Shown: piece by piece, positions 32,850 to 47,290 of the stretch
Position numbering within the stretch: the stretch's first letter is position 1
Layout: each line of letters begins with the position of its first letter
DNA from: an uncultured Rhodospirillaceae bacterium
Lineage (GTDB): Bacteria > Pseudomonadota > Alphaproteobacteria > UBA7887
Direction: 5' to 3'
Length of the DNA: 64,000 nucleotides
Assembly (NCBI GenBank): GCA_964408735.1
Contig: CAYPAX010000008.1
Location: 2,025 to 66,024, forward strand
Made by a program: the position numbers and the translations under genes
The notes under the pieces: model-generated
What the model was told of the DNA's origin: nothing
What the model saw: only the letters and a program-made list of their open reading frames with translations
Databases searched by the model: none

Positions 32850-32850
32850 G

Positions 32851-33632: not shown

Positions 33633-34477
33633 GCCTGGCATTCGAGCCCATCACGGGGCGCTACGCCACGCTGAGCCTGGCGGGCAGGCCCTGCCGCATC
33701 TATCTGGAAGAGGCGGGCAGCGGCATCCCCTTGCTCTGCCTGCACACCGCCGGCGCCGATAGCCGCCAGTATCGCCACTTGATGCTCGACGAGGCCGTGA
33801 CGGATCGCTTTCGGGTGATCGCCTTCGATCTTCCCTGGCACGGCAAGTCCCTGCCGCCGCCCGGCTACGAGGACGAGGAATATCGCCTGACCACCGCGTC
33901 CTATGTCGAAGCCATCCTCGCCGTTGCCGTCGGGCTCGACTTGCAGGACCCGGTGCTCATGGGCTGCTCCATGGGCGGACGCATCGTGCTGGAGATTGCG
34001 GCCCGCCACGCGGAACGCTTCCGCGCCCTGATCGGCGTCGAGTGCGCCGACCACCAGACGCCCTGGTACGACACCGACTGGCTGCACCGCGGCGACGTGC
34101 ACGGCGGCGAGGTCTGCGCCGCCATGATCTCAGGCCTGGTCGCGCCCCAGTCGCCCGCCCAATACCGCTGGGAGACCCTCTGGGGCTACCTGCAAAGCGG
34201 CCCCGGCATCTTCAAGGGCGACCTGCATTTCTACCGCGAGGATTCCGACTTCCGCGACCGCGCCGCCCTGATCGACACAGCGGTTTGCCCACTCTATCTG
34301 CTGACCGGCGAATACGACTTCTCCTGCACCCCCGAGGACACCCTGCGCACCGCTGCCGCCATCCCCGGTGCCAAGGCAACCATCATGAGGGAACTCGGCC
34401 ATTTCCCCATGAGCGAGAACCCGGCGCGCTTCCACGAATATCTGATGCCGGTGCTGGCGGAGATTTGCGCGAAATAG
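33629..34477 (+). CDS. Alpha/beta hydrolase fold protein
   Basis: Start MSLAFEP at 33629. Nucleophile elbow GCSMGG. 282 aa. Confidence 0.8.
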   Translation: MSLAFEPITGRYATLSLAGRPCRIYLEEAGSGIPLLCLHTAGADSRQYRHLMLDEAVTDRFRVIAFDLPWHGKSLPPPGYEDEEYRLTTASYVEAILAVAVGLDLQDPVLMGCSMGGRIVLEIAARHAERFRALIGVECADHQTPWYDTDWLHRGDVHGGEVCAAMISGLVAPQSPAQYRWETLWGYLQSGPGIFKGDLHFYREDSDFRDRAALIDTAVCPLYLLTGEYDFSCTPEDTLRTAAAIPGAKATIMRELGHFPMSENPARFHEYLMPVLAEICAK

Positions 34478-34490: not shown

Positions 34491-35581
34491 AATGGGGTCC
34501 GCCGCCGAATTGGGGTCACGCCGAATTGGGGTCAAGTCTTTCATTTTAGCGTTGATGATTCTATGATTGTCGACGGCCAAATCATAACAACCGGACCGAA
34601 CGCCATGGCACGTCCCTTGCGGCTCGACTTTCCCGGCGCGCTTCACCACGTGACGGCGCGGGGCAATGCGCGCCAGGACATCTTCTTCACGGCCGATGAC
34701 AGGCAGCATTTTCTCGACAATTTGGGGAAGGTCTGTGAACGACTCGGTTGGATATGCTATGCTTACTGTATGCTCGATAACCACTATCATATTCTGATAG
34801 AGACGCCGACCGGCGGCCTCGCCCGCGGCATGCGGCAAGTCAACGGTGTCTACACGCAATACGTCAATCGCGTGCATGATCGCGTCGGGCACCTCTTTCA
34901 GGGGCGCTACGCCTCGATCCTGGTTCACAAGGAGAGCCATCTGCTCGAGCTCTGCCGCTACATCGTGCTCAACCCGGTCAGGGCCGGCCTGGCCGACGCC
35001 GCAGGCGACCATCTGTGGTCGAGCTACCGCGCCACCGCCGGAGCGTCGCGCGGGCCGGCGTGGCTGCATAGCGATGCAGTATTGAGCCTGTTCGGCGGCG
35101 CGCCGCGCACCGCCAGGGCGCGGTATCGGCGATTCGTGGCGGAAGGGGCGGCAAGGCGGCCCTGGGACAATCTGGTCGATCAGGTCTTTCTCGGGCCGGC
35201 CGGCTTCGCTGCCGAGATGAAGGCGCGCGTCGGCGATACCGATGCCCTGACCGAGGTGCCGCAAGCGCAAAGGCGGGCGCCGGCGCATGGCCTCGACTGG
35301 TATGCCGCCGAGACGCCGGACCGCAACGCCGCCATGCTCGCGGCCTGGCAGTCGGGCGATCACACGCAGCAGGCCATAGCGCGGCATTTCGGCATTCATT
35401 ACACCACCGTCTCGCGCCTTCTCAAGCGCCTGGGGGCATAGCTGTCCGCGGGCCCGTCTTGGGGTCAGCGGGTTTTGGGGTCAGGTCTTTCCCTTTAGCA
35501 TATTATGTTTTTCTAAAATGCTAAAATGAAAGACTTGACCCCAATCTGGATGAAATGAAAGACTTGACCCCAATCTGGATG
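34491..35581 (+). mobile_element. REP-associated tyrosine transposase (RAYT) locus with flanking REP-like repeats
   Basis: IS200/Y1-type transposase gene flanked by GGGGTC-containing repeats. Tandem AAT(T)GGGGTC units at 34491-34535. TTGGGGTCAAGTCTTTCATTTTAGC at 34526-34550. A variant copy at 35474-35499. Two tandem inverted copies GAAATGAAAGACTTGACCCCAATCTGGATG at 35522-35581. Confidence 0.7.
34605..35441 (+). CDS. REP-associated tyrosine transposase (IS200-like Y1 transposase with C-terminal HTH)
   Basis: MARPLRLDFPGALHHVTARGNARQDIFF...NHYHILIET carries the HuH motif and a catalytic Tyr region. C-terminal HTH (IARHFGIHYTTVSRLLKR). The track ORF starts 14 codons earlier, at 34563. Confidence 0.8.
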   Translation: MARPLRLDFPGALHHVTARGNARQDIFFTADDRQHFLDNLGKVCERLGWICYAYCMLDNHYHILIETPTGGLARGMRQVNGVYTQYVNRVHDRVGHLFQGRYASILVHKESHLLELCRYIVLNPVRAGLADAAGDHLWSSYRATAGASRGPAWLHSDAVLSLFGGAPRTARARYRRFVAEGAARRPWDNLVDQVFLGPAGFAAEMKARVGDTDALTEVPQAQRRAPAHGLDWYAAETPDRNAAMLAAWQSGDHTQQAIARHFGIHYTTVSRLLKRLGA

Positions 35582-35586: not shown

Positions 35587-36483
35587 TCAGGGGGTGACGA
35601 GGTTCAGCGTGCGCTCCGACAGCGTCACCTGCGCGGTGATGCCCCAGTCGAAGCGCAGGTAGTCCTGCTCGATACCGTCGGCGAAGATGACGCCGTCGTC
35701 GTTCATGCGCGAGGTCAGGGAGAGGCCGTGTTGCTGTTCCACCGCGCCGAAGGCGAGGGTGCTGCCGGATTGTTTGCTGGGCCAGGGCTCGCGGGCGAAA
35801 TAGAGGGCGCGGCGCTCGTCGGGCGCCAGCGCCTCTTGCCGCTGGGTCGCGGTCATGATGGAGCGCGCCCAGCCGCTCAGGCCCGTGCCTGTGGAGACGA
35901 TCACGCCGGAGGACGACTGGTACTCCTCCACCTCGCCGTCGCGCAGCACATAGCGCGCCGACTGGTGCGAGCGGTGGCCGAGGAAAAGCTCGTTGAGCGC
36001 CGAGAGCGACTGGCCGTCGTCGAGGCTCGCCTGCACCATGGTGCGGCGCTGCAAGTCGACGTCGCCGGCGGCGACGCGCGGTAGCAAGGCGGGCAGGGCG
36101 TCTGCCGACAAAGCGGTGAGAATGCCCTCGGTCGTCTGTGGATCGGGTGTCACACCGAGCACGGGCTGGCCACTGAGATACTTGGCCAGGTTCGCCACCA
36201 GGCCGTCCTGGCCGACGGCGATGACGATGTCGTTGTCGCCGAACAGGAAACGGTCGAGGTCGTCGCGCAGCACCTGGGCGATCGACCAGTCGTCGGGCAC
36301 GGCGCGCTTGACCTGGCCCTCGGCGGCCAGCTGGCGCTTATTTTGCTTGTCGAGCGTCGCCAGGCTCTGGCCGCGGCTTTCGAGGAAGAACTCGGTCTGG
36401 CCGCGCGTCGCGTGGCTCGCCAGCAGGCGGTCGAATTCCGTCTGCCGGGTCACCACCACCGCTCTTGCCGCCAGGCCGCTCAT
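35587..36483 (-). CDS. Atypical NAD kinase-like (ATP-NAD kinase / DAGK-catalytic family) protein
   Basis: 298 aa. GQDGLV in place of the canonical GGDG. SSGVIVSTGTGLSGWARS in place of DGlivsTPTGSTAYSLSAGGP. The fold assignment is likely but the substrate is uncertain. Confidence 0.6.
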   Translation of the reverse strand: MSGLAARAVVVTRQTEFDRLLASHATRGQTEFFLESRGQSLATLDKQNKRQLAAEGQVKRAVPDDWSIAQVLRDDLDRFLFGDNDIVIAVGQDGLVANLAKYLSGQPVLGVTPDPQTTEGILTALSADALPALLPRVAAGDVDLQRRTMVQASLDDGQSLSALNELFLGHRSHQSARYVLRDGEVEEYQSSSGVIVSTGTGLSGWARSIMTATQRQEALAPDERRALYFAREPWPSKQSGSTLAFGAVEQQHGLSLTSRMNDDGVIFADGIEQDYLRFDWGITAQVTLSERTLNLVTP

Positions 36484-36493
36484 GGTTCGCTCC

Positions 36494-37477
36494 CTACTCT
36501 GTCGCAGCGTGGCTCAGGGCGCCGCGCATCTGGCCGAGCAGGCTCGAGAGCATGTCGGGCGTGATGCTGAGATTGTCGATGCGCTCCAGCTTGCCGGCGA
36601 AGTCCCGTGCGGCAAGGCCCATCAGCACGGCGGGCGGCAGCTCGCGATAGACGGCCATGCGCGCCTGCTCCATGTCCGCCGCGGCCTGGTCGACGGTGCG
36701 GATGCGCCCGGCCTCGGCTTCGGCGTGGACCTTCAGCGCCTCGGCCTCGGCCTCGGCTCTCGCCATGTCGTTGGCGGCCTCGCGGGCGATCAGATCCTGT
36801 TCGCGGGCGGCAAGCTCGATGCGGTTGTTGAGCTCGTTCTCGGTGATCGCGCGCTCCTTGTCGACGGCGAGCGCCCGGCGCGCGAATGTCGCTTCGTCCG
36901 CCTGCTGCTGCAGGCTTTCGAAGGTCGGCGCCTGCAACGCCCGCGCCAGCTCGCTGCTGGGCTGCAGGCTAGCGACACGAATGCCGACCAGGCCCAGGCC
37001 GATATCGGCAAGCGAGCTGTCGGCATCGAAGCCATCGGCAATGATGGCCTGCAACGGCGCCACGCCGGCATCGAGCAGGTCGCGCACACCGAATTGGGCG
37101 AGACGCGCATTGGCGAACTGACCGACCAATGAGACAAGCAGGGTATTCACCTGATCCAGCGGCTCGCCGATGTGTTGACCGGTCTTCAGATCCAGGGTGA
37201 AATCCACGCGGTCGCCGAGGGCTTCAGGATCGGTGACGCGCCAGGTGACGATGCCTTGCACGGTGAGCTCCTGGAAATCCGCGGACTGGCCCTTGAGCAC
37301 GAACGGCAGCTGCCGGTCGGCCATGGGAATCTCGCTGATCGAGGCGCCATCGGGGCGGCACCAGAAGGCCAGGCCGCGCCCCGAGCGCACGCGGCGGCCG
37401 TTGCGGAAAAGCTGCACGTGGGCGGAAGCGTCCGACCGGAACTGCCGCAGGGTCGGGTAGGATGTGATCTGTGCCAT
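36494..37477 (-). CDS. SPFH/band-7 (flotillin-like) domain protein
   Basis: 327 aa. Band-7 core followed by a Glu/Ala-rich coiled coil (EAEAEALKVHAEAEAGRIR). 10 nt upstream of the NAD-kinase-like gene. Confidence 0.85.
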   Translation of the reverse strand: MAQITSYPTLRQFRSDASAHVQLFRNGRRVRSGRGLAFWCRPDGASISEIPMADRQLPFVLKGQSADFQELTVQGIVTWRVTDPEALGDRVDFTLDLKTGQHIGEPLDQVNTLLVSLVGQFANARLAQFGVRDLLDAGVAPLQAIIADGFDADSSLADIGLGLVGIRVASLQPSSELARALQAPTFESLQQQADEATFARRALAVDKERAITENELNNRIELAAREQDLIAREAANDMARAEAEAEALKVHAEAEAGRIRTVDQAAADMEQARMAVYRELPPAVLMGLAARDFAGKLERIDNLSITPDMLSSLLGQMRGALSHAATE

Positions 37478-37538
37478 GTCGGGAACTCCTCTTCTTCTTG
37501 CGGCTTGCCGCCGAGGCTTCTTTGCGATAGTGTGTATA

Positions 37539-37573
37539 TGACACTTAGTATTCGTGTTGTCAAGACACTAAGT
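37539..37573. promoter_or_regulatory. Candidate operator: nested inverted repeats TGACA-N14-TGTCA and ACTTAGT-N17-ACTAAGT (possible NrtR site)
   Basis: Located in the 99-bp divergent region, ending 4 nt before the ATG of the Nudix-regulator gene. Also contains a near-direct repeat GACACTTAGT / GACACTAAGT. Confidence 0.35.
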
Positions 37574-37576
37574 CAC

Positions 37577-38245
37577 ATGAGCCATACCTACGACTATCCC
37601 CATCCCGCCGTGACGACCGATATCGTCGTGTTCACGGTCGACGAAGGTGTGCTGAAGCTGCTGGGGATCCGGCGCAAGGCGGCGCCGTATCAGGGGCGCT
37701 GGGCGCTGCCGGGCGGCTTTGTCGAGATCGACGAGTCCATTGATGCCTGTGCCGCGCGGGAGCTGGCGGAGGAGACCGGGCTCGCCGGCATCTATCTCGA
37801 GCAGCTCTACACCTTCGGCGCGCCGGATCGCGATCCGCGGGAGAGGGTGATCAGCGTCGCCTATTACGCGCTTGCGCCGTTGCACGGTCTCGCGCTCAGG
37901 GCCGGCTCGGACGCCGCGGCTGCCGCCTGGCACGACATCGATGCCTTGCCGGAGCTGGCTTTCGACCACCGGGATATCGTCGCCATGGCGCGAGAGAGGG
38001 TGCGGGCGAAGATCGAGTATTCCGACCTCGGGCTGATGTTCATGCCGGAGAGCTTCACTTTGTCGGACGTGCAGGGGCTTTACGAGACCGTCTCCGGGCA
38101 GCCGCGCGACAAGCGGAATTTCCGCAAGTGGCTATTGTCTCTTGACCTGATCGAGGAAACGGGCGAGATGCGGGCCGAGGGCGCCCATCGTCCCGCCAAG
38201 CTCTACCGGCGGACGAGCCCGAACGAGCTGACGATCATCCGCTGA
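37577..38245 (+). CDS. NrtR-like regulator: Nudix domain fused to C-terminal winged-helix DNA-binding domain
   Basis: Intact Nudix box GGFVEIDESIDACAARELAEETGL. C-terminal ...LSDVQGLYETVSGQPRDKRNFRKWLLSLDLIEETGEMRAEGAHRPAKLYRR is typical of the NrtR winged-helix domain. Confidence 0.7.
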   Translation: MSHTYDYPHPAVTTDIVVFTVDEGVLKLLGIRRKAAPYQGRWALPGGFVEIDESIDACAARELAEETGLAGIYLEQLYTFGAPDRDPRERVISVAYYALAPLHGLALRAGSDAAAAAWHDIDALPELAFDHRDIVAMARERVRAKIEYSDLGLMFMPESFTLSDVQGLYETVSGQPRDKRNFRKWLLSLDLIEETGEMRAEGAHRPAKLYRRTSPNELTIIR

Positions 38246-38254
38246 GGCGACAGC

Positions 38255-38929
38255 ATGCAAATCTCCGATGTCGAACAGGCCTTGCGCACGGCGGGACTGG
38301 CGCCGCGTGGTGCGTTTCACCCCGAGCCCGCCGACGGCGTGCCGGATATCGCACCGGGGCGGCCGACCGGCACCCTGGTGCTGGCGGGCAATGCGGGGCC
38401 CGAGATGTGGCGCGCCTTCGTGGCGGCGACGGGGGCGCCGGCCGGCGGCCTCGACGGCTGGTCCGACGAAGTCTTGAGCCGGGCCGCCGAGCAGTGTGGC
38501 GCCATGGCCGTCTTCCCCTTCAGCAAGCCGCCGCTGCCGTTTCAGCGCTGGGCCTGCCGTGCAGGACCCTGCTTCAGCTCGCCCCTCGGTATCCTGATTC
38601 ATGCCGATCACGGCCTTTGGCACGCCTTTCGCGGCGGCCTGGCATTTGCCGAGCGCCTCGATCTGCCGCCGCCGGACGAGCGCCCCAACCCCTGCGAGGC
38701 CTGCCCGCAGCGGTTCTGCCTGACGACCTGCCCGGTGTCGGCCTTCAGCGAGGACGGCTATGACGTTCCCGCTTGCGCCGTCCATGTCGCGGAAAACGGG
38801 GACGGCGACTGCCTTTCGCTGGGCTGCCGGGCGCGGCGTGCCTGTCCGATCGGGCGTGGGGCACGCTACGAGCCGGCCCAGGCACAGTTTCACATGGAGT
38901 CGTTCCTGCGCGCCCGCCTGCCCGCCTGA
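38255..38929 (+). CDS. Ferredoxin-like protein with two [4Fe-4S]-type Cys clusters
   Basis: CEACPQRFCLTTCP and CAVHVAENGDGDCLSLGCRARRACP motifs in the C-terminal half. Starts 9 nt after the NrtR-like gene. Confidence 0.5.
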   Translation: MQISDVEQALRTAGLAPRGAFHPEPADGVPDIAPGRPTGTLVLAGNAGPEMWRAFVAATGAPAGGLDGWSDEVLSRAAEQCGAMAVFPFSKPPLPFQRWACRAGPCFSSPLGILIHADHGLWHAFRGGLAFAERLDLPPPDERPNPCEACPQRFCLTTCPVSAFSEDGYDVPACAVHVAENGDGDCLSLGCRARRACPIGRGARYEPAQAQFHMESFLRARLPA

Positions 38930-38981
38930 GCCTTGACGCCCTTAACATGGGTTATTGCCGTCATTGCCGCACTTGAGCCGA

Positions 38982-39692
38982 ATGGCGGACACTGGGGTTC
39001 GAGAATTCTCACGATATCGACCTCCCCTGCCAACCAAGCCATGGGTGACGCACGTGTCTGTCGCGGAAATTTACGATGCTGTTCTGGATTACGATGATGA
39101 GGGGGTGCCTGAGCTGGTAAACGCGGAGCTCGCAGCCGGCACCGACATAAAGGTCATTCTCGACGACGGCATGATAGCCGCGCTCGATGATATCGGGGCC
39201 CGCTTCAGCGAGGGCACGCTGTTCGTGCCCGAGATGCTGATGGCGGCCCAGGCGGTGCAGGCGGGCATGGATATCCTGCGCCCGCTGCTGGCCGAGACCG
39301 GCGCCAAGCCCGTCGGCACCGTGGTCATCGGCACGGTCAAGGGCGACCTGCACGACATCGGCAAGAACCTGGTGGCGATGCTGCTGGAAGGCGCCGGTTT
39401 CAAGGTCGTGGACCTGGGCGTCGATGTCGATGCCGAGACCTTCATCTCCTCGGCCCAGGAGAACGAAGCCGAGCTGGTGGCGATCTCGGGCCTCCTGACC
39501 ACCTCCATGCCGGAAATCGAGAGCGCCGTGGCGACCATCGCCGAGGCCAACAAGGCGCGCAACCTCAACGTCAAGGTCATGGTCGGCGGGCCGCCTCTGA
39601 ACACCGAATTCGCCACGCGCATCGGCGCCGACGGCTATGGCGAGAGCGCACCCGCCGCGGTCGACAGAGCCCGCAGCCTGGTCGCGGTATAA
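38982..39692 (+). CDS. Cobalamin-binding corrinoid protein (methyltransferase cognate corrinoid protein, MtaC/MtbC-like)
   Basis: B12-binding cap domain plus Rossmann domain with DxHxxG (GDLHDIGKN). Start uncertain: ATG at 38982, or in-frame GTG at about 39047. Confidence 0.75.
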   Translation: MADTGVREFSRYRPPLPTKPWVTHVSVAEIYDAVLDYDDEGVPELVNAELAAGTDIKVILDDGMIAALDDIGARFSEGTLFVPEMLMAAQAVQAGMDILRPLLAETGAKPVGTVVIGTVKGDLHDIGKNLVAMLLEGAGFKVVDLGVDVDAETFISSAQENEAELVAISGLLTTSMPEIESAVATIAEANKARNLNVKVMVGGPPLNTEFATRIGADGYGESAPAAVDRARSLVAV

Positions 39693-39705
39693 GGGGACAC
39701 GTGCG

Positions 39706-40863
39706 ATGAGCTGGAGCCACCGCGACCGCGTCCTTGCCGCGATCAACCACGAGGAGCCCGACCGGGTTCCCATCGATCTCGCCGCCGCCGGCGCCACGGG
39801 CATCACCATCGATGCCTATGACGCCCTCAAGGCGCATCTCGGCCTGGAGCACGAGAGCGTGATGATGTCGAAGCTCAACCAGCTCGCCGCGCCGGACGAG
39901 ACGGTGCTCGAGCGCTTCGGCGTCGATACCCGCCCGGTCATGGCGCACGGGCGCCGCGGCGGCAAAGGCCACTGGGTCGACGAGCTGACCTATATCGACC
40001 ATTTCGGCGTCACCTTCAAAGGCACCGTCGGCACGGCGGACAAGCATTTCCTCTACAAGGACGGCCCGCTCTGCGGCGGCAAGCTGACCATCGACCGCAT
40101 CGACGAGATGGAATGGCCGGACCCCGAAGATCCGCTGATGTCCGCGGGCATCAAGGAGCGGGTCGCCGCCTACAAGGCGCAGGGCGACTACTGCCTGGTC
40201 TTCAACGTGCCCGATCAGGTCATCCATCGCGCCTACGGCCTGCGCGGCATGGAGGCCTTCCTGATGGATCTGTTCAAGGCGCCGGAAGCGGCGTGTTATC
40301 TCATGGACCGCCTGGCCGACTACAACATCAAGGCCTCGGAGAAGATGATCCGCGAGGCCGGGCCGGAGAACATCGACGTGATCTTCTTCGGCGAGGATCT
40401 CGGCACCCAGAACGGCTGCATGTTCGACCCCGACGCGACCTATGGCCGCATGATCAAGCCGCGCCACGAGCGCATCATCCAGACGCTGAAGGGCCTGACG
40501 GGCGGCAAGTCGCTGTTCCACTGCTGCGGCTCCGCCTATCTCTTCATCGAGCATCTGATCGATATCGGCGTCGATATCCTCAATCCCGTCCAGGTGGCGG
40601 CGAAGAACATGGAGGTCGAGCGCCTCAAGGGCGAGTTCGGCACCCGCATGGCTTTCTGGGGCGGCATCAACACGCAAGCGACCCTGCCCCAGGGCACGCC
40701 CGAGGAGGTCATCGCCGAGACCCGCCACGTCATCGATGTCCTCGGCAAGGGCGGCGGCTACGTGCTCAACGCGGTGCACAACATCCAGCCCGAGGTGCCG
40801 CCGGAAAACGTCGTCGCCATGTACGACACCGGGCTCGCGCACCGCTACCTGGTGCCGGCCTGA
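39706..40863 (+). CDS. Uroporphyrinogen decarboxylase (URO-D) family methyltransferase (MtaA/MtbA-like methylcobamide methyltransferase)
   Basis: 385 aa. N-terminus MSWSHRDRVLAAINHEEPDRVPIDL. URO-D/MtaA fold. AAGGGGA Shine-Dalgarno. Confidence 0.8.
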   Translation: MSWSHRDRVLAAINHEEPDRVPIDLAAAGATGITIDAYDALKAHLGLEHESVMMSKLNQLAAPDETVLERFGVDTRPVMAHGRRGGKGHWVDELTYIDHFGVTFKGTVGTADKHFLYKDGPLCGGKLTIDRIDEMEWPDPEDPLMSAGIKERVAAYKAQGDYCLVFNVPDQVIHRAYGLRGMEAFLMDLFKAPEAACYLMDRLADYNIKASEKMIREAGPENIDVIFFGEDLGTQNGCMFDPDATYGRMIKPRHERIIQTLKGLTGGKSLFHCCGSAYLFIEHLIDIGVDILNPVQVAAKNMEVERLKGEFGTRMAFWGGINTQATLPQGTPEEVIAETRHVIDVLGKGGGYVLNAVHNIQPEVPPENVVAMYDTGLAHRYLVPA

Positions 40864-40864
40864 C

Positions 40865-41461
40865 ATGACCGAGCCGCCGCGCACCCTGTTGATCACCTGC
40901 GGTGCCCTGGCCGCGGAGGTCGTTGCCCTGGTGCGCGACAACGGCTGGGACAGCATGAAGGTCAAATGCCTGCCGGCGCATATCCACAATACGCCGGAGC
41001 TGATACCCGACGGCGTGCGCAGGCTGATCCATGCCGGGCGCGAGGATTTCGAGCAGATCCTGGTGTTGTTCGCCGATTGCGGCACCGGCGGCAAGCTCGA
41101 CGAGGTGATTGCGGAAGAAGGCGTGGCGCGCATCGGCGGCAGCCACTGCTACGAGGTCTACGCCGGGCCTGAGGCGTATGCCGAGCTGATGCGGGACGAG
41201 CCGGGCAGTTTCTTCCTGACCGACTTCCTGGCCCGCCACTTCGAGCGCCTTGTCGTCAAGGGCCTGGCGCTCGATCGCCATCCGAAGCTGCGCGACATCT
41301 ATTTCGGCAAATACCGCAAGCTGGTCTATCTGAGCCAGAACGAGACCCCGGAATTGCGCGCCAGGGCCGAAGCCGCTGCCGAGACGCTGGGTCTCGCTTT
41401 CGAGGCGCGCCCGACCGGCTATGGCGGCTATCAGGAGTTCCTCGAAACCCACCAAGCATGA
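40865..41461 (+). CDS. DUF1638-like protein
   Basis: 198 aa (MTEPPRTLLITCGALAAEVVAL...). Starts 1 nt after the upstream stop. This family is often linked to corrinoid methyltransferase loci (recalled from memory). Confidence 0.55.
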   Translation: MTEPPRTLLITCGALAAEVVALVRDNGWDSMKVKCLPAHIHNTPELIPDGVRRLIHAGREDFEQILVLFADCGTGGKLDEVIAEEGVARIGGSHCYEVYAGPEAYAELMRDEPGSFFLTDFLARHFERLVVKGLALDRHPKLRDIYFGKYRKLVYLSQNETPELRARAEAAAETLGLAFEARPTGYGGYQEFLETHQA

Positions 41462-41471
41462 GGTGCCGACC

Positions 41472-42608
41472 ATGACCGGCTTCAGCCATCGGGATCGTGT
41501 TCTTGCCGCCCTCGACCACGAGCCGACCGATCGCGTGCCGATCGACTTCGGCGGCACCTTCGTCTCGACGATCTGGTATTCGGCCTATGAGAAGCTGAAG
41601 CAGGAGCTCGGCATCGCCACCACGGTCAAGGCCGCCAATGTCTCGCCCGTGCGCCGCCTGGCGGTGGTCGAGCCCGAGGTCCAGGACCGCTTCGACGTGG
41701 ACACCCGCTATCTCGCCCTCGGCCAATACGAGGGCGACCAAAAGGTCATCGACGAGGACACCTATTTCGACGAGTGGGGCGTGACCTGGCGCAAGTCGGG
41801 CGAGGGCCCCTATCTCTATGTCAACGGCCCCTTCTTCGGCATCAAGAAGCCCGATATCGCCCTGCTCGACGACTACGACTGGCCCGATCCCGACAACCCC
41901 GGCTATACCCGCGGCCTGGCCGAGCGCGCGGCGGCGCTGAGAAAGAACAGCGATCACGCCATCATTCTCAACATGCCCGTCGGCATCGTCCACAACGCCC
42001 AGTTCGTGCGCGGCTTCGCCGAGTCGCTCACCGACCTCTACAAGAACCGCGCCTTCCTCGAGCGCCTCTACGGCATCCTCACCGACTGGTATGTGAGGGT
42101 GGCAAGCAATGCCCTGGAGGCGGTCGGCGACAATGTCGACATCGTCTTCATGGGCGACGATCTGGCCTCGCAGCAGGCGACCATGTTCGACCCCGAGATC
42201 TACCGCGCCATGATCAAGCCCCACCAGCGCCGCATCATGGAGTGCGTCAAGAGCTACGGTCAGCCAAAAATTCTCTATCACAGCTGCGGTGCGGTGGCGC
42301 CGCTGATCGAGGATCTTATCGAGATCGGCGTCGATGCGCTCAATCCCGTGCAGGTCACGGCCAAGGGCATGGAGCCGGCGGGCCTCAAGGAAGCCTACGG
42401 CGACCGCCTCGCCTTCTGGGGCGGCATCAGCACCCAGAAGGCCCTGCCCTTCGGCACGCCCGACGAGGTGCGCGCCGATGTGCGCCATATCATCGATTGC
42501 CTCGGCAAGGACGGCGGCTACGTGCTCAACAGCGTGCACAACCTGCAAAGCGACGTGCCGCCGAAAAACATCATCGCCATGTTCGACGAAGCGCGGGTGT
42601 ACTGCTAG
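41472..42608 (+). CDS. Second URO-D family methyltransferase paralogue (MtaA-like)
   Basis: 378 aa. N-terminus MTGFSHRDRVLAALDHEPTDRVPIDF parallels the first paralogue. GAGG Shine-Dalgarno. Confidence 0.8.
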   Translation: MTGFSHRDRVLAALDHEPTDRVPIDFGGTFVSTIWYSAYEKLKQELGIATTVKAANVSPVRRLAVVEPEVQDRFDVDTRYLALGQYEGDQKVIDEDTYFDEWGVTWRKSGEGPYLYVNGPFFGIKKPDIALLDDYDWPDPDNPGYTRGLAERAAALRKNSDHAIILNMPVGIVHNAQFVRGFAESLTDLYKNRAFLERLYGILTDWYVRVASNALEAVGDNVDIVFMGDDLASQQATMFDPEIYRAMIKPHQRRIMECVKSYGQPKILYHSCGAVAPLIEDLIEIGVDALNPVQVTAKGMEPAGLKEAYGDRLAFWGGISTQKALPFGTPDEVRADVRHIIDCLGKDGGYVLNSVHNLQSDVPPKNIIAMFDEARVYC

Positions 42609-42704
42609 GCGGCACTATCCGGGGCACATGGCGCGTGGTTTGACTCGCGCCGGCGGGGCCGGCGTGGCAAACTGGCGGTTGTGCGCAACGACCCGGGGGG
42701 CGAG

Positions 42705-45700
42705 ATGAGCGCTGACGAAGGCCAGAGGAAGCTGGCGGCGATATTGGCGGCCGATGCGGCCGGCTATTCGCGGCTGATGGCCGAGGACGACCGCGCGACG
42801 GTGGCGGCGGTCAAGCAGGCGCGCGAGGTCTTCCGTGAGCGTATCGAGGCCCATGGCGGGCGGCTCGTGGATACCGCCGGCGACAGCGTGCTGGCCGAGT
42901 TCCGCAGCGATGTCGAGGCGGTGCAGTGCGCCGTCGAGGTGCAGGATAAGCTCAAAGAGATCAACGCCCCCGTCGCCGACGATCGCCGCATGCTGTTCCG
43001 CATCGGCGTCAACACCGGCGATGTCATCGAGGAGGCCGACGGCACGCTGTATGGCGACGGCGTCAACGTCGCCGCGCGCCTGGAGGGCCTGGCCGAGCCC
43101 GGCAGCATCAACATCTCCGCCCGCGTCCACGACGATGTCGAAGGCAAGGTGGATGTCGGTTTCGTCGATATCGGCGAGCACGAGGTCAAGAACATCGCCC
43201 GGCCCGTGCGGGCCTATCGCGTGGTGGCGTCGGGGAGTGAGAAGGCTTCGGCGCCCAGCGTCAGCTCGCGCAAACGTCTGGGAGTCATCGCGGCTGCCTT
43301 GGCGGGGGTCATCGTGCTTGCAGGAATTGTGTGGTGGCAAACGGGGAGCCCGGAACCATCGCCTATGTTGACAGCGGATGGGGTTCCGACAGAGAGCCCG
43401 GCGCTTGCAATGCCGACAGGCCCCGCGATTGCCGTTCTTCCTTTCGACAATTTCAGCGGCGACGCGGACCAGGATTACTTTGCCAATGGCTTGACCGAAA
43501 ATATCATCACGGCCCTGTCGCATTTCCAAGGCATTCGCGTTATCGCGCGGAACTCGACATTCAAGTATCAAGGAAGAGCGGTCGACGTTCGCGAGGTGGC
43601 CTCCGACCTGGGTGCCGACTATGTGCTGGAAGGGAGCGTGAGGCGCACAGCGGAAAGCATTCGTGTCACGGTTCAGCTCCTGGACCCAGTAGACGGCTCC
43701 CACATATGGGCGAAGAAATACGACCGGATAGCAGACGCGGCCCAGCTCTTCGCCGCGCAGGATGAAATTACAGATCACGTAGCGGCAGCTATAGCAGGTG
43801 TCGCGGGCGTGATCGTTGGTCGCGAGCTGGGAGAAATGGAGCGAAGAGCTCCGGGATCACTTTTCGTCTATGACTGCGTTTTATTAGCACAGCATGCAAT
43901 GCATGTTACCAGTGACGAGAACCATCGACGGGCAAAGACATGCCTTAAGGAGGCTATAGCATCCGACCCGAGTTCTGCGGATGCTTGGGCTGCGCTCGCC
44001 AATCTCTACGAAGGAGAGCTGTACGGTATCGACCCCGAACCCGACGCTGGCGATCCCGTCGATCGCATGATCGATGCCGCGAGGAAGGCGTTGGAATTCC
44101 AACCGCGACATCCTTGGGCACTGTATGTCTTGGCGTCTGCACATTTCTGGCGCCAGGACCGTGAGGCCTTCTTCCGAACAGCGAAAGAGGCGATTGCGGC
44201 CAACCCGAATGATGCTACCACTATCCAAGTGCTGGGAGACAAGTTCTCGTTTATGGGGGATTCGGAAACGGCTCTTGCATTGGTTAAGAAGGCAGTTGCG
44301 TTGACACCAGACCCGCCGCCAACTTACTGGATGACATTCACGGTGGAGCACTACGGTCGGCGGGAGTATGAGGCGGCCTTGAAATACGCAAAACGCGCCG
44401 AAACTCCTGGATACTTCTGGAGTTATCTTCAGCTAGCCATGGTCCAGGGTCAGCTTGGGAACCTCGAAGAGGGTCGTGATGCGGCTACGAAGATGCGTGA
44501 ACTCAATCCCGAGATGGCTGATAGGGATGCCGTGTGGGCTGAGTTTCAGTTTTGGGCCTTCGGCGATGACGCGAAGGCGCATCACTGGATGGAGGGCCTC
44601 GAAAAAGCCGGCCTCTTCGACGAGCCCGAAGCCCCCTCCCGCCCCGTGATTGCCGTGCTGCCGTTCGACAATCTCTCCGGCGATCCTAGCCAGGAGTATT
44701 TCGCCGACGGCATCACCGAGGACATCATCACGCGTCTGGCGCAATACCCGGACATTCTCGTGCTGGGGCGCAACACGACCTTCCAGTTCAAGGGCCAGGC
44801 CGTGGACATCCCGGCCATCGCCGAAAAGCTCGGCGCCGACTACGTGGTCGAGGGCAGCATCCGCCGCGGCGGCAATACGGTGAGGGTGACGGCGCAGTTG
44901 CTGGGTGCGGAGGGTGGGACGCACGTCTGGGCAGAGACGTATGACAGGGCACTTGATCCAGAAAATTTGTTCACCATGCAGGACAAGATCACAAGTGCAA
45001 TCGCAAGCCGCATCGGCGACTATTACGGTGCGATCGGCGAGGCCGAGTTCCAGCGCACGATTAAACAGGCCCCTGATCACCTGTCGTCATACGAATGCGT
45101 CCTTCGATTTTTCGAGTACGGCAGGATGCTCTCACCCGATACGCATCGCGTGGCGATCGATTGCCTTGAGGCGGTGGTCGAAGTTGAGCCCGATTACGCA
45201 GAGGCGATGGCGTTTCTTGTTGAAGTATATTTGGACGATGTCGCGTTCGGCTTCGGCGCCTCACCAAACTCTTCCGTGCAAAGAGCCCTCGAGCTCGCTC
45301 AGCGGGCTGTTGCAATCGAGTCTGACAGCGGCTCAGCGCTAATCCGTTTAGCGCGTGCTTATTACCTTAACGGGGATGTCGAGCGCGCCTACCGGGCAAC
45401 GGAAAAGTCGCTTGAGCTTGAGCCCAATAGTGTAGACGTGATTGCCGTCGCCAGTGACATCTTGGTGCGGATTGGAAAGTTTGAACGCGGCTTCGAGATG
45501 TTGGAGCTTGTGCAACAGCTGAATCCGAACTATCCGCCATGGATGAACTGGGATATCGCAATTGTCCATATGGCTCGCGGCGAATACACCGAAGCCATCG
45601 CGCGGCTCGAACAGACACAGATGGACTGGCAGTACTGGACACCCGCTTTCATCGCAGCGGCGCATTGTCAAAACGGTGACATTGAGAGTCGCCGAAAGTC

Positions 45701-45881
45701 GCTGGAGACGGCATTGCAGCTTAATCCCGATCTTGCCGACGTCTATTGGCGGGATTTCTACTTTTGGAACAAAGGCCCAGATGTGAGGCCGATGGTTGAG
45801 GCTGTTGCATCCGGCCTCGAAGCCTGCGGCTGGGATGTGCCGCCCGATCCCGGCCGCGAGGCGTTCGCCGGCCAGGACTAG
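42705..45881 (+). CDS. Class III adenylate cyclase with transmembrane segment and duplicated TolB-N-like + TPR modules
   Basis: Cyclase domain at the N-terminus (KLAAILAADAAGYSRLM...GVNVAARLE). Transmembrane helix. Two paralogous modules begin AIAVLPFDNFSGD (nt ~43426) and VIAVLPFDNLSGD (nt ~44641). Start is ATG 42705, or GTG 42681. Confidence 0.85.
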   Translation: MSADEGQRKLAAILAADAAGYSRLMAEDDRATVAAVKQAREVFRERIEAHGGRLVDTAGDSVLAEFRSDVEAVQCAVEVQDKLKEINAPVADDRRMLFRIGVNTGDVIEEADGTLYGDGVNVAARLEGLAEPGSINISARVHDDVEGKVDVGFVDIGEHEVKNIARPVRAYRVVASGSEKASAPSVSSRKRLGVIAAALAGVIVLAGIVWWQTGSPEPSPMLTADGVPTESPALAMPTGPAIAVLPFDNFSGDADQDYFANGLTENIITALSHFQGIRVIARNSTFKYQGRAVDVREVASDLGADYVLEGSVRRTAESIRVTVQLLDPVDGSHIWAKKYDRIADAAQLFAAQDEITDHVAAAIAGVAGVIVGRELGEMERRAPGSLFVYDCVLLAQHAMHVTSDENHRRAKTCLKEAIASDPSSADAWAALANLYEGELYGIDPEPDAGDPVDRMIDAARKALEFQPRHPWALYVLASAHFWRQDREAFFRTAKEAIAANPNDATTIQVLGDKFSFMGDSETALALVKKAVALTPDPPPTYWMTFTVEHYGRREYEAALKYAKRAETPGYFWSYLQLAMVQGQLGNLEEGRDAATKMRELNPEMADRDAVWAEFQFWAFGDDAKAHHWMEGLEKAGLFDEPEAPSRPVIAVLPFDNLSGDPSQEYFADGITEDIITRLAQYPDILVLGRNTTFQFKGQAVDIPAIAEKLGADYVVEGSIRRGGNTVRVTAQLLGAEGGTHVWAETYDRALDPENLFTMQDKITSAIASRIGDYYGAIGEAEFQRTIKQAPDHLSSYECVLRFFEYGRMLSPDTHRVAIDCLEAVVEVEPDYAEAMAFLVEVYLDDVAFGFGASPNSSVQRALELAQRAVAIESDSGSALIRLARAYYLNGDVERAYRATEKSLELEPNSVDVIAVASDILVRIGKFERGFEMLELVQQLNPNYPPWMNWDIAIVHMARGEYTEAIARLEQTQMDWQYWTPAFIAAAHCQNGDIESRRKSLETALQLNPDLADVYWRDFYFWNKGPDVRPMVEAVASGLEACGWDVPPDPGREAFAGQD

Positions 45882-46195
45882 ATAGCCACCACCCGCTGCA
45901 CCGTCCAGCGCGGGGTGCCGGAGACGATGTGGGGCGCCAGCGCCTTGGCCCAGGCCGCCTGGTCCTCGGCCTCGGCCAGGCGTTCCCAGGCCTCGTCGAG
46001 GGCGCTCAGGCTGGCCAGTTGGACCTCGACCTCGATGGCGGATTCCCGGGTGCCGACGGCGCCGGTGAGGATGCGCACCTGATTGGGCTGCCAGCCGATC
46101 TGTGGCGCGATCTCCAGCCACCAGCGGCGCATCGCCTCCAGCGCCTCGGCCTTGTGGCCGAAGCGGGCCTGGATCCGCCAGCGGGCGACGATCAT
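45878..46195 (-). CDS. Hypothetical protein (105 aa)
   Basis: MIVARWRIQARFGHKAEALEAMRRWW... ATG at 46193-46195 forms an ATGA overlap with the stop of the upstream deacetylase gene. Convergent 4-nt overlap with the cyclase gene. Confidence 0.45.
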   Translation of the reverse strand: MIVARWRIQARFGHKAEALEAMRRWWLEIAPQIGWQPNQVRILTGAVGTRESAIEVEVQLASLSALDEAWERLAEAEDQAAWAKALAPHIVSGTPRWTVQRVVAI

Positions 46196-47283: not shown

Positions 47284-47290
47284 GGCGGGC

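What the first reader, a model, noticed from the sequence alone, without database searches (positions are those of the whole stretch)
37577..42608. Compact corrinoid-dependent methyltransferase module headed by an NrtR-like Nudix regulator
Six co-directional, tightly spaced genes (gaps of 9, about 50, 12, 1 and 10 nt) look like a single operon. In order they encode:
- a Nudix-wHTH regulator (NrtR-like);
- a two-cluster [4Fe-4S] ferredoxin-like protein;
- a B12-binding corrinoid protein;
- a URO-D-family (MtaA-like) methyltransferase;
- a DUF1638 protein;
- a second URO-D-family methyltransferase.

There is no MttB/MtgB-, MtaB- or MtrH-type partner in the operon. The two URO-D paralogues would therefore have to act as MT1 and MT2 around the corrinoid protein, as the MtsA type does. 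The Fe-S protein is a plausible reductive reactivator of Co(II).

Such systems are classically found in methanogens and acetogens. A version in a high-GC proteobacterial chromosome, controlled by a Nudix-type regulator, is not a textbook system. Its methyl donor and acceptor cannot be read from the sequence.
Basis: partly seen in the sequence, partly recalled or inferred. Interest (0 to 1): 0.78.

Follow-up and report, generated by a model that had tools for sequence, protein, structure and literature searches.

The report
Trimmed corrinoid methyl-transfer operon, marine alphaproteobacterium
The six genes are a real operon: a cut-down, NrtR-controlled copy of a widespread but uncharacterised vitamin-B12-dependent methyl-transfer system of uncultured marine bacteria, whose two URO-D-type enzymes most likely strip methyl groups from still unknown substrates.

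Summary
Six co-directional, tightly spaced genes at 37577-42608 encode:
- an NrtR-family regulator;
- a Cys-rich Fe-S protein;
- a corrinoid protein;
- a URO-D-family protein;
- a DUF1638 protein;
- a second URO-D-family protein.

All six are under purifying selection (dN/dS 0.07-0.21).

Relatives carry the same genes interleaved with an ATP-dependent corrinoid activase (RACo/AcsV-like), a methyl-THF:corrinoid methyltransferase, MetVF, a homocysteine methyltransferase (the type Mausz 2025 calls MtgE), TRAP transporters and GntR regulators. The two URO-D paralogues are therefore not forced to act as an MT1+MT2 pair. They most likely act as two substrate:corrinoid methyltransferases (MT1). The MT2 and the activase would then be encoded outside this 64-kb window.

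The "ferredoxin" has a CblC/QueG/reductive-dehalogenase cobalamin-binding fold plus two [4Fe-4S] motifs.

The only two GTGT-N7-ACAC palindromes in the window lie just upstream of the regulator's start codon, and they match the NrtR operator core.

Aerobic alphaproteobacterial modular corrinoid systems are already published (CmuAB, split MetH, MtgBCDE). I found no description of this URO-D-based version. It is a new variant of a known kind, and its substrate is unknown.

The parts
37530..37568 (.). Two tandem candidate NrtR operators, GTGTGTATATGACAC (37530-37544) and GTGTTGTCAAGACAC (37554-37568). They are 24 bp apart and end 9 nt before the g1 ATG.
   Evidence: These are the only two GTGT-N7-ACAC matches in the 64-kb window (0.38 expected by chance). 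The block is almost invariant in L005 while the sequence further upstream diverges. It matches the NrtR core GT-N7-AC (PMC2330246). Binding was not tested.
37577..38245 (+). g1: NrtR-family Nudix/winged-helix transcription regulator (222 aa) with an intact Nudix box (G-FVEID-E-SIDACAA-RE-L-A-EE-T-G-L).
   Evidence: Pfam NUDIX 73 bits and NrtR_WHD 83 bits. NF050029 gives 162 bits, below its equivalog cutoff of 400. The best PDB hit is Bacteroides AraR 5bs6 (3.7e-50), ahead of Shewanella NrtR 3gz5 (8.6e-33). dN/dS is 0.12.
38255..38929 (+). g2: protein with a CblC/QueG/RdhA-fold (cobalamin-binding type) domain followed by two [4Fe-4S]-type Cys motifs (C147/150/155/159 and C174/186/191/197).
38943..38954 (.). 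Conserved palindromic motif TAACATGGGTTA in the g2-g3 spacer. Its function is unknown; it may be an internal operator or promoter element.
   Evidence: TAAC-N4-GTTA is found upstream of the corrinoid protein gene in the window, L005, L001 and L003. About 0.005 matches are expected per 320-nt segment. There is no Rfam hit, and the spacer folds no better than shuffled sequence (z 0.37).
39045..39692 (+). g3: methyltransferase-cognate corrinoid protein with a B12 cap, a Rossmann B12-binding domain and the His-on motif DLHDIG. Alternative starts are 38982 and 39054.
   Evidence: Pfam PF02607 and PF02310. NCBIfam MtgC_2 gives 184 bits and pyl_corrinoid 169 bits, both below their cutoffs. PDB relatives are 1y80, MttC 7xcn and 4jgi.
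39706..40863 (+). g4: URO-D-superfamily methyltransferase of clade A, the type found next to the corrinoid protein gene. It carries the H-x-C motif (FHCCG) and a conserved downstream His.
   Evidence: Pfam URO-D 82 bits. MtaA/CmuA models give 47-64 bits, below their cutoffs, and hemE gives 21 bits against 303. The clade comes from the NJ tree. A URO-D gene follows the corrinoid protein gene in about 33 of 37 loci.
40865..41461 (+). g5: DUF1638 protein with four invariant Cys (C12, C35, C72, C95) and two invariant His (H41, H94). It is an accessory factor of corrinoid methyltransferases.
41472..42608 (+). g6: URO-D-superfamily methyltransferase of clade B, the clade that has expanded into many paralogues. 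It carries the H-x-C motif (YHSCG) and H356.
   Evidence: Pfam URO-D 92 bits. The best PDB relative is MtaA 4ay7 (4.7e-08 for g6 alone; 6.7e-10 for the A1 profile). Across 113 family members H270 is present in 113, C272 in 104 (Asp in 9), and H356 in 102 (Cys in 5). The family has more than 4257 proteins at E<=1e-10 and 1219 clusters (50% identity) at E<=1e-30.

Best explanation
The block is one operon and a reduced copy of a widespread modular corrinoid-dependent methyl-transfer system.

Proposed roles:
- g3 is the cobalamin-carrying shuttle (His-on).
- g4 (clade A) and g6 (clade B) are two substrate-specific, probably zinc-dependent (His/Cys/His) substrate:corrinoid methyltransferases (MT1). 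Each moves a methyl group from a small methylated compound onto Co(I).
- The methyl group is then passed on by an MT2 that this organism must encode elsewhere. This would be a MeTr-type methyl-THF-forming enzyme (feeding MetVF and C1 oxidation) and/or an MtgE-type homocysteine methyltransferase (making methionine).
- g5 (DUF1638, a four-Cys site) and a RACo/AcsV-like ATP-dependent activase encoded elsewhere keep the cofactor in the Co(I) state.
- g2 is a cobalamin-binding Fe-S redox protein of the CblC/QueG/RdhA fold. It most likely processes incoming cobalamin, reduces it, or loads it onto g3.
- g1 is an NrtR-family repressor. It binds two GTGT-N7-ACAC operators over the operon's promoter and start region, and releases them when its nucleotide- or sugar-type effector is bound.

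Shown: gene content, folds, motifs, conserved synteny, purifying selection and the operator-like sites.

Inferred: the MT1 role of both URO-D proteins, the off-window MT2 and activase, zinc binding, the roles of g2 and g5, and repression by g1.

The substrate is not identified. In relatives, the linked TRAP binding protein is closest to lactate- and keto-acid-binding proteins. Together with the MtaA-like H-x-C motif, this suggests small methylthio- or methoxy-carboxylates. That is only a lead.
For: - Domains.
- Fuller operons in relatives: for example L016 reads PanB-GntR-FeS-CoP-UROD_A-DUF1638-MetV-MetF-MeTr-RACo-UROD_B-DctPQM-PhyH. L003 and L007 end in an MtgE-type homocysteine methyltransferase.
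- Loci such as L054 and L059 have clade A as their only URO-D next to MeTr and MetVF. There, clade A must be the partner opposite the pterin-binding methyltransferase.
- Clade B expands to 10 tandem copies in L030, as substrate-specific MT1 families do.
- The H-x-C motif aligns with the MtaA zinc motif LHICG. H356 is replaced by Cys in 5 of 113 sequences.
- g2 fold.
- DUF1638 genetics and its co-occurrence with RamA-like proteins: PMC5764234. Increased abundance during methyl-compound growth: PMC12478193.
- Module scattering around the genome is normal in R. pomeroyi and P. inhibens.
- Operators.
- Purifying selection.
Against: - No MT2, RACo, MetF or transporter lies anywhere in the 64-kb window. 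Their presence elsewhere in this genome could not be checked.
- No member of clade A or B has been characterised biochemically.
- Both clades fall far below the NCBIfam MtaA/CmuA thresholds, and only their C-terminal halves match known profiles.
- MtaA, the closest solved relative, is an MT2 (methyl-cobalamin to thiol). Sequence affinity therefore leans, if anything, towards thiol methylation rather than MT1 chemistry.
- The third zinc ligand was assigned indirectly. The MtaA alignment stops before it.
- g2 homologues also occur away from any corrinoid operon.
- g1 is closer to arabinose-sensing AraR than to ADP-ribose-sensing NrtR, so its effector is unknown.
Confidence: 0.55

Rival explanations
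1. One URO-D paralogue is the MT1 (substrate to Co(I)). The other is an MtaA/MtsA-like MT2 that transfers the methyl group from methyl-Co(III) to a thiol acceptor such as homocysteine, 3-mercaptopropionate or another small thiol. The operon would then be self-sufficient for methyl transfer.
For: - The window holds no other methyltransferase.
- The closest solved relative is the thiol-methylating MtaA, and the H-x-C zinc motif is fully conserved.
- Clade A is the constant partner next to the corrinoid protein gene, while clade B is variable. That pattern would fit a fixed MT2 with variable MT1s.
- NC10 loci also carry two different URO-D genes beside the corrinoid protein gene.
Against: - In relatives, the same two orthologues coexist with dedicated MT2 genes, either MeTr or the MtgE type.
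- Several loci have clade A as the only URO-D together with MeTr, MetVF and a TRAP transporter (L054, L059). A catabolic MT1 role explains this more simply.
- The NC10 loci with two URO-D genes still carry a homocysteine methyltransferase.
- g4 and g6 share all candidate catalytic residues, so nothing in the sequences separates a donor-side enzyme from an acceptor-side one.
Confidence: 0.2
2. The locus is mainly the core of the organism's split cobalamin-dependent methionine synthase, as in P. inhibens and R. pomeroyi (corrinoid protein plus DUF1638). The URO-D genes would be add-on modules that let alternative methyl donors feed methionine synthesis.
For: - Corrinoid protein and DUF1638 genes are adjacent in the published split-MetH core.
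- L003, L007 and the NC10 loci place an MtgE-type homocysteine methyltransferase in the same operon.
- About 70% of marine genomes with MtgBCD lack MetH.
Against:
- No homocysteine or pterin module lies in the window.
- Some genomes hold several corrinoid protein paralogues (L014 has two), so g3 need not be the methionine-synthase one.
- This reading overlaps the best explanation rather than excluding it.
Confidence: 0.15
3. The operon is a decaying remnant. After RACo, MeTr, MetVF and the transporter were lost from the ancestral operon, the remaining genes no longer work.
For: The window and its closest relatives lack the RACo gene that sits between DUF1638 and clade B URO-D in L001, L003, L007 and others. 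They also lack MeTr, MetVF and TRAP genes.
Against: - All six ORFs are intact.
- dN/dS is 0.07-0.21 at dS of 0.2-0.5 against L005.
- The same reduced architecture is kept in three diverged lineages, with g2 identity between them down to 74%.
- The same contig is recovered from many metagenomes.
Confidence: 0.03
4. g4 and g6 are decarboxylases of the HemE type, or another URO-D-like non-methyltransferase, that merely sit next to a B12 protein.
For: - The Pfam URO-D hit.
- The conserved VHN motif aligns with the HemE G-H-G histidine.
Against: - The hemE equivalog model gives 17-21 bits against a cutoff of 303.
- There is tight, recurrent linkage to corrinoid protein, RACo, MeTr and DUF1638 genes.
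- The MtaA-type H-x-C motif is invariant.
Confidence: 0.02

Closest known systems
Split methionine synthase / MtgBCDE system of marine Roseobacters (P. inhibens, Price et al. 2018, PMC5764234; R. pomeroyi, Mausz et al. 2025, PMC12478193)
   Same: - It occurs in aerobic Alphaproteobacteria.
- It has a stand-alone corrinoid protein next to a DUF1638 gene.
- It depends on a RamA/RACo-like activase.
- It uses a MeTr-type pterin module and an MtgE-type homocysteine module, both present in relatives' operons.
- Its modules are scattered over the genome.
   Different: - The substrate-specific MT1 there is an MttB-superfamily protein (pfam06253, MtgB). Here it would be one of two URO-D-superfamily proteins.
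- No pfam06253, pterin or homocysteine module lies in this window.
- A CblC-fold Fe-S protein and an NrtR regulator are part of this operon.
- Orthology of g3 with MtgC was not tested.
Acetogen and archaeal O-demethylase and haloalkane systems (MtvABC, OdmABCD, MtoABCD, CdmBCA; PMC13222342, PMC8630106)
   Same: The four-part logic is found in relatives' operons: a UroD-superfamily MT1, a corrinoid protein, a pterin-binding MT2 and a RACo-type activating enzyme. MT1 families also expand into paralogues.
   Different: - Sequence similarity of clades A and B to CdmB is marginal (E 0.013, C-terminus only). They are nearer to MtaA.
- Clades A and B have an invariant H-x-C motif, whereas CdmB is zinc-free.
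- The hosts are high-GC marine Alphaproteobacteria. The L001 relative carries cytochrome oxidase genes nearby.
- DUF1638 and the CblC-fold protein are extra components.
MtaA/MtbA/MtsA/MtpA methylcobamide:CoM methyltransferases of methanogens, and the CmuA methyltransferase domain
   Same: They share the URO-D TIM-barrel superfamily and the H-x-C zinc motif, which aligns with MtaA. They partner with a separate or fused corrinoid protein. MtsA and MtpA show that the fold can act on methylthio substrates.
   Different: - Scores are 47-64 bits against family cutoffs of 235-400, and only the C-terminal half aligns.
- The third ligand appears to be His instead of Cys.
- No CoM metabolism is expected in these bacteria.
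- A third URO-D type in some relatives (for example L019:302-1480, 223 bits against a cutoff of 244) is much closer to MtaA/CmuA. It is absent from the window.
MMACHC/CblC, QueG and reductive dehalogenases (cobalamin-binding nitroreductase-like fold; PMC4646009)
   Different: - There is no significant sequence match to any of them (no PDB hit at E<=1; only a 17-bit QueG hit).
- It lacks the tRNA-binding or substrate domains.
- Cobalamin binding and activity are untested.
NrtR/AraR family of Nudix-related transcription regulators (Rodionov et al. 2008, PMC2330246)
   Same: It has a Nudix domain and an NrtR winged-helix domain. Palindromic sites with the GT-N7-AC core lie in front of its own operon.
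   Different: The regulated genes have no evident link to NAD or pentose metabolism. The protein scores below the NrtR equivalog cutoff. It is closer to Bacteroides AraR than to Shewanella NrtR, yet it keeps an intact Nudix box.

Membership tests
HemE (uroporphyrinogen decarboxylase) | Score above the TIGR01464 equivalog cutoff (303 bits) | tested here: not met
   g4 scores 20.7 bits and g6 scores 17.6 bits.
URO-D superfamily (Pfam PF01208) | Score above the Pfam gathering threshold (23.9 bits) | tested here: met
   g4 scores 81.9 bits and g6 scores 92.1 bits. Only profile positions from about 144-159 to 342-344 of 346 are matched.
MtaA/CmuA family methyltransferases (TIGR01463 / PRK06252) | Score above the family cutoff (235-244 bits) | tested here: not met
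   Scores are 54.6-64.6 bits. A third URO-D type in relatives reaches 223 and 206 bits.
MtaA/CmuA family methyltransferases (TIGR01463 / PRK06252) | Zinc motif H-x-C plus a distal Cys | tested here: inconclusive
   H270 is present in 113 of 113 sequences and C272 in 104 of 113, and the motif aligns with MtaA LHICG. The distal position is His (102 of 113; Cys in 5), and it was assigned only through the HemE alignment. Metal content cannot be tested here.
Methyltransferase-cognate corrinoid proteins (MtaC/MttC/MtgC type) | B12 cap domain, B12-binding Rossmann domain and the DxHxxG His-on motif | tested here: met
   PF02607 scores 66.6 bits and PF02310 scores 94.8 bits. DLHDIG is read directly in the translation. 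The closest PDB chains are 1y80, 7xcn and 4jgi.
Glycine-betaine-specific MtgC (NF047996 / NF047995) | Score above the model cutoff (370 / 310 bits) | tested here: not met
   Scores are 184 and 160 bits.
Roseobacter MtgBCDE / split MetH system | Corrinoid protein gene adjacent to a DUF1638 gene | tested here: met
   g3 and g5 are in one operon, separated only by g4.
Roseobacter MtgBCDE / split MetH system | MtgB (pfam06253), MtgD (pterin-binding), MtgE (homocysteine) and RamA-like modules present | tested here: inconclusive
   tblastn with MeTr-type, MtgE-type and RACo representatives found nothing in the 64-kb window, and no pfam06253 hit appeared among the ORFs of 23306-47403 that were scanned. 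MeTr-type, MtgE-type and RACo genes do occur inside relatives' operons. The rest of this genome could not be searched.
Roseobacter MtgBCDE / split MetH system | g3 orthologous to SPO2160 / PGA1_c13350 | not tested
Three/four-component O-demethylase-type systems (MT1, CP, MT2, AE) | UroD-superfamily MT1, corrinoid protein, pterin-binding MT2 and RACo-type activator encoded together | tested here: inconclusive
   All four occur together in relatives such as L016, L017, L018 and L025. The window has only the candidate MT1s and the corrinoid protein.
NrtR family regulators | N-terminal Nudix domain fused to an NrtR winged-helix domain | tested here: met
   PF00293 scores 73 bits and PF21906 scores 83 bits.
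NrtR family regulators | NrtR equivalog score (NF050029 cutoff 400) and an ADP-ribose effector | tested here: not met
   The score is 162 bits. The effector cannot be tested here. The best PDB relative is arabinose-responsive AraR.
NrtR family regulators | Palindromic operator with a GT-N7-AC core upstream of regulated genes | tested here: met
   Two GTGT-N7-ACAC sites lie at 37530-37568. They are the only ones in the window and are conserved in L005.
CblC/QueG/RdhA cobalamin-binding fold | Structural match to the family and Fe-S motifs as in QueG/RdhA | tested here: met
CblC/QueG/RdhA cobalamin-binding fold | Binds cobalamin | not testable with these tools
   This needs purification and spectroscopy.
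DUF1638 (PF07796) | Score above the gathering threshold (27 bits) | tested here: met
   The score is 92.5 bits.

The most novel reading that the evidence does not exclude
Three linked claims make up the most novel reading that the evidence does not exclude.

1. URO-D clades A and B are a new, very large class of zinc-dependent (His/Cys/His) substrate:corrinoid methyltransferases of oxygen-respiring bacteria. They would open an unrecognised route by which abundant uncultured marine Alphaproteobacteria demethylate small methylthio- or methoxy-carboxylates and pass the methyl groups to tetrahydrofolate or directly to homocysteine. One candidate substrate is 3-methylthiopropionate; as far as I recall, no bacterial demethylase for it is known.

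2. g2 would be the first Fe-S-dependent bacterial counterpart of the CblC B12-processing enzyme.

3. In this lineage the whole module has been rewired from a GntR regulator to a nucleotide-sensing NrtR regulator.
Probability: 0.3. Interest if true: 0.8.

Novelty: new variant of a known kind. Interest (0 to 1): 0.6.

Why it matters
Corrinoid-dependent methyl transfer was long treated as an anaerobe speciality. Recent work shows it drives glycine betaine turnover and methionine synthesis in abundant aerobic marine bacteria.

The URO-D clade found here is large. It has more than 4257 proteins at E<=1e-10 and 1219 clusters (50% identity) at E<=1e-30. It can reach ten tandem copies in one locus. 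It is wired to the same hub parts: corrinoid protein, DUF1638, RACo, MeTr and a homocysteine methyltransferase of the type Mausz 2025 calls MtgE.

Identifying its substrates would add a new B12-dependent sink for methylated metabolites in the ocean and further B12 demand. It would also give a function to two orphan components, DUF1638 and the CblC-fold Fe-S protein.

The present locus is a compact six-gene version suited to heterologous reconstitution.

Tried and rejected
- **Riboswitch or other RNA element.** An Rfam scan of 36000-44000 at E<=1 found nothing. The g2-g3 spacer folds no better than shuffled sequence (z 0.37).
- **Partner genes in the window.** tblastn with RACo, homocysteine methyltransferase, MeTr, MTHFR, MetV, DctPQM, GntR, PhyH and PanB representatives gave no hit. 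The only match was an unrelated MR_MLE gene at 57685-58692.
- **The upstream B12-binding ORF (32683-33261).** It is the small subunit of a methylmalonyl-CoA-mutase-like enzyme and is unrelated to this operon.
- **Cultured or annotated examples.** tblastn of g4 against 72,556 plasmids gave only two distant hits, below 30% identity. The best 80 genome hits were all metagenome-assembled genomes.
- **Substrate from the transporter.** The TRAP binding protein in relatives is closest to lactate- and keto-acid-binding proteins, and the PhyH gene is only distantly like EctD. This is suggestive but not diagnostic, and neither gene is in the window.
- **NrtR implying an NAD-related methyl donor such as trigonelline.** Nothing supports this idea. 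Relatives use GntR regulators, and g1 is closer to AraR than to canonical NrtR. It was dropped to speculation.
- **Literature.** Full-text searches for DUF1638, DUF4445 with corrinoid, URO-D family with corrinoid, MtgC/MtgD, MtaA with Rhodospirillaceae, and O-demethylase terms with marine or Alphaproteobacteria found no description of this URO-D-based system.
- **Terminator and promoter scan.** It gave no more sites than chance.

Full report
**Observation**

| Gene | Coordinates | Content |
|---|---|---|
| g1 | 37577-38245 | NUDIX and NrtR winged helix |
| g2 | 38255-38929 | no Pfam hit, Cys-rich |
| g3 | ends at 39692 | B12-binding_2 and B12-binding |
| g4 | 39706-40863 | URO-D |
| g5 | 40865-41461 | DUF1638 |
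| g6 | 41472-42608 | URO-D |

Two coordinates need small corrections. The g4 start is 39706; a start at 39705 is out of frame. The g3 start is more likely 39045 or 39054 than the first ATG at 38982, because gene callers on identical metagenome contigs choose those starts and orthologues are 212 aa.

The gaps are therefore 9, 52 to 124, 13, 1 and 10 nt. g4 and g6 are 44% identical over their full length.

The genes are real and constrained:
- dN/dS is 0.07-0.21 for all six against L005 (dS 0.2-0.5). It is 0.13-0.17 for g2-g6 against L001.
- The identical locus appears on contigs from several marine metagenomes.
- The closest named genomes are uncultured Rhodospirillaceae MAGs.

**Surroundings**

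- Upstream, on the opposite strand, lie a Band_7 gene (36494-37477) and an unannotated 298-aa gene.
- Further upstream are an IS200-type Y1 transposase gene, an alpha/beta hydrolase gene and a methylmalonyl-CoA-mutase-like pair with its own small B12-binding subunit. This pair is unrelated to the finding.
- Downstream, on the same strand after 72-96 nt, is a 1066-aa adenylate-cyclase/TPR gene of lower G+C.
- tblastn finds no RACo/RamA-like, pterin-binding, MTHFR, homocysteine methyltransferase or TRAP genes anywhere in the 64 kb. No MttB-family (pfam06253) hit appeared among the ORFs of 23306-47403 that were scanned with Pfam.

**What the proteins are**

*g4 and g6.* They are not HemE: they score 17-21 bits against a cutoff of 303. 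They also fall well below the MtaA/CmuA family thresholds (47-65 bits against 235-400), and only their C-terminal halves match known profiles.
- The closest solved relative is MtaA 4ay7, with E 6.7e-10 for the family profile. HemE follows, and the chloromethane MT1 CdmB is marginal at E 0.013.
- The MtaA zinc motif H-x-C is aligned and conserved. Over 113 family members, H270 is present in 113 and C272 in 104.
- H356 is present in 102 sequences and replaced by Cys in 5. It aligns with the HemE G-H-G histidine. I infer that this is the position of MtaA's distal Cys. The MtaA alignment stops before it, so I did not show this directly.

*g3.* It is a standard methyltransferase-cognate corrinoid protein with DLHDIG.

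*g2.* It gave a confident model (pLDDT 92.6).
- The C-terminal 80 residues carry eight invariant Cys in two [4Fe-4S]-type motifs.
- It is therefore a small member of the cobalamin-binding CblC/QueG/RdhA fold family, not a simple ferredoxin.

*g5.* It gave a good model (pLDDT 87.6) but only generic two-lobe Rossmann-like matches. Four Cys and two His are invariant, which suggests a metal or Fe-S site.

**Comparative genomics**

The g6 family is large:
- more than 4257 proteins at E<=1e-10 in the 90% identity cluster database;
- 1219 clusters (50% identity) at E<=1e-30.

Most members come from marine Alphaproteobacteria. The family is also found in NC10, Acidobacteriota, Desulfobacterota, Chloroflexota, Planctomycetota and Bacillota.

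I clustered all ORFs of 78 loci and annotated the recurrent clusters. A fuller ancestral-looking operon emerges, for example in L016:

PanB-like, GntR/FCD, g2-type, corrinoid protein, URO-D clade A, DUF1638, MetV, MetF, MeTr-type methyl-THF:corrinoid methyltransferase (NF005719, 346 bits against a cutoff of 259), RACo/AcsV-like activase, URO-D clade B, DctPQM, PhyH dioxygenase.

Other variants:
- L003 and L007 end with a homocysteine methyltransferase (NF005718, 421 bits against 338). Mausz et al. reinterpret this "BHMT" type as MtgE.
- NC10 loci read RACo, corrinoid protein, URO-D, URO-D', homocysteine methyltransferase, DUF1638.
- L030 has ten tandem clade B genes followed by DUF1638 and MetVF.

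An NJ tree separates a clade A, found next to the corrinoid protein gene (g4), from a clade B that has expanded into paralogues (g6). A third type, close to MtaA/CmuA, is absent from the window.

The NrtR gene occurs only in the window's own lineage (window, L005 and the contig). That lineage has also lost RACo from between g5 and g6.

g2 homologues also occur alone elsewhere in genomes. This fits a general cobalamin-handling role.

**Link to the literature**

- In P. inhibens, the corrinoid protein PGA1_c13350 and the adjacent DUF1638 gene PGA1_c13340 are both needed for B12-dependent methionine synthesis. So are a pterin module, a homocysteine module and a RamA-like protein encoded elsewhere. 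DUF1638 and RamA-like proteins co-occur across Alphaproteobacteria (PMC5764234).
- In R. pomeroyi, the same hub (MtgC) also serves glycine betaine demethylation with an MttB-family MT1 (MtgB). Its modules are scattered around the genome (PMC12478193).
- UroD-superfamily MT1s are known for methoxy-aromatics and haloalkanes in anaerobes (PMC13222342).
- Nine of the ten full-text searches asked about parts of this system (the tenth concerned NrtR operator motifs). None found a description of URO-D clades A or B, or of the g2 family.

**Mechanism**

The most economical reading is a modular corrinoid shuttle.
- g4 and g6 are two MT1s that load methyl groups from different donors onto Co(I)-g3.
- An MT2 unloads the methyl group to THF (MeTr type) or to homocysteine (MtgE type).
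- RACo, DUF1638 and possibly g2 maintain or install the cofactor.

The MT1 assignment rests on three points:
- Some loci have clade A as the only URO-D beside MeTr, MetVF and a TRAP importer.
- Clade B shows MT1-like paralogue expansion.
- Dedicated MT2 genes coexist with both clades.

For this organism, the MT2 and the activase have to lie outside the window. That is inferred, not shown.

The nearest solved relative is a thiol-methylating MT2, and the sequences do not separate donor-side from acceptor-side roles.

The substrate cannot be read from the sequence. In relatives, the linked TRAP binding protein is closest to lactate- and keto-acid-binding proteins. With the thiol-type zinc motif, this makes small methylthio- or methoxy-carboxylates reasonable first candidates.

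**Regulation**

The 99-bp region between the Band_7 gene and g1 contains the only two GTGT-N7-ACAC palindromes in the 64-kb window, at 37530-37544 and 37554-37568. They are 24 bp apart and end 9 nt before the g1 ATG. About 0.38 such sites are expected by chance in the whole window.

This block is nearly invariant in L005, while the sequence further upstream diverges. It matches the GT-N7-AC core of NrtR operators (PMC2330246).

g1 keeps an intact Nudix box. However, it scores below the NrtR equivalog cutoff and is closer to Bacteroides AraR than to Shewanella NrtR. Its effector should therefore not be assumed to be ADP-ribose.

A second conserved palindrome, TAACATGGGTTA at 38943-38954, lies in the g2-g3 spacer of the window, L005, L001 and L003. 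It is unexplained.

**Verdict**

- The system belongs to a known kind: multi-component corrinoid methyltransferases, now known in aerobic Alphaproteobacteria.
- It is an undescribed variant, with a new URO-D clade pair as presumptive MT1s, a CblC-fold Fe-S accessory protein and lineage-specific NrtR control.
- This particular locus is a trimmed copy of a widespread operon, not a unique invention.
- I score interest at 0.6.

Noticed in passing
L030:831-12929: Ten tandem URO-D clade B paralogues (48-55% identical to g6), followed by DUF1638 and MetV/MetF, in one uncultured alphaproteobacterial MAG (CAYUNL01). That MAG has further copies on at least five other contigs. This is an extreme paralogue expansion.
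   Followed up: partly
window 38943-38954; also L005, L001 and L003 upstream of the corrinoid protein gene: A conserved palindrome, TAAC-N4-GTTA (TAACATGGGTTA), lies in the spacer between the Fe-S protein gene and the corrinoid protein gene in four related loci. About 0.005 matches are expected per segment. It may be an internal operator or promoter. No RNA family or stable fold was found.
   Followed up: partly
window 34563-35441 (+): An IS200-type Y1 transposase with a C-terminal HTH (292 aa). It is absent from the otherwise syntenic relative on the 253-kb JGI contig, so it is probably a recent insertion. That relative instead has a second Band_7 gene next to the NrtR gene.
   Followed up: partly
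window 42681-45881 (+): A 1066-aa adenylate/guanylate cyclase with TolB_N/FlgO-like and TPR regions lies directly downstream on the same strand, 72-96 nt after g6. Its G+C is lower (0.59 against about 0.66). It sits in the same position in all close relatives. No + strand terminator-like site separates it from g6, so co-transcription is not excluded.
   Followed up: no
window 30475-34477 (+): A separate B12-dependent cluster: an SDR, a methylmalonyl-CoA-mutase-like large subunit (31266-32849), a small B12-binding subunit (about 32842-33261), a 124-aa ORF and an alpha/beta hydrolase. It is unrelated to the corrinoid methyltransferase operon, but it shows a second B12 demand within 5 kb.
   Followed up: partly
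L019:302-1480, L025:44-1102, L036:5101-6279, L012:11147-12178 (-): A third URO-D type flanks the fuller operons of some relatives. It is much closer to genuine MtaA/CmuA (223 bits on PRK06252 against a cutoff of 244, with a full-length match). It is absent from the window and could be the thiol-type or CmuA-type partner in those loci.
   Followed up: partly
L042:1145-7600 and L046:7386-13800: NC10 (Methylomirabilota) MAGs carry a compact RACo, corrinoid protein, URO-D, divergent URO-D, homocysteine methyltransferase, DUF1638 operon. It looks like a complete system that methylates homocysteine from an alternative methyl donor.
   Followed up: no
L087:8001-8684 and L088:8001-8693: Homologues of the CblC-fold Fe-S protein (57-61% identical to g2) stand alone, far from any corrinoid gene. 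One lies next to a nos (N2O reductase) cluster and the other next to peroxidase and caspase-like genes. The family is therefore not restricted to methyltransferase operons.
   Followed up: partly
L003:12275-15764: Directly after the homocysteine methyltransferase gene of one relative's operon come an IlvD/Edd-family dehydratase, an SDR and a PNP_UDP_1 (MTA/purine nucleoside phosphorylase family) gene. This is a possible hint of a link to methylthio-compound or methionine salvage.
   Followed up: no
window 46192-47403 (-): A histone-deacetylase-family (PF00850, 290 bits) gene follows the cyclase on the opposite strand. It is conserved in synteny in the relatives.
   Followed up: no
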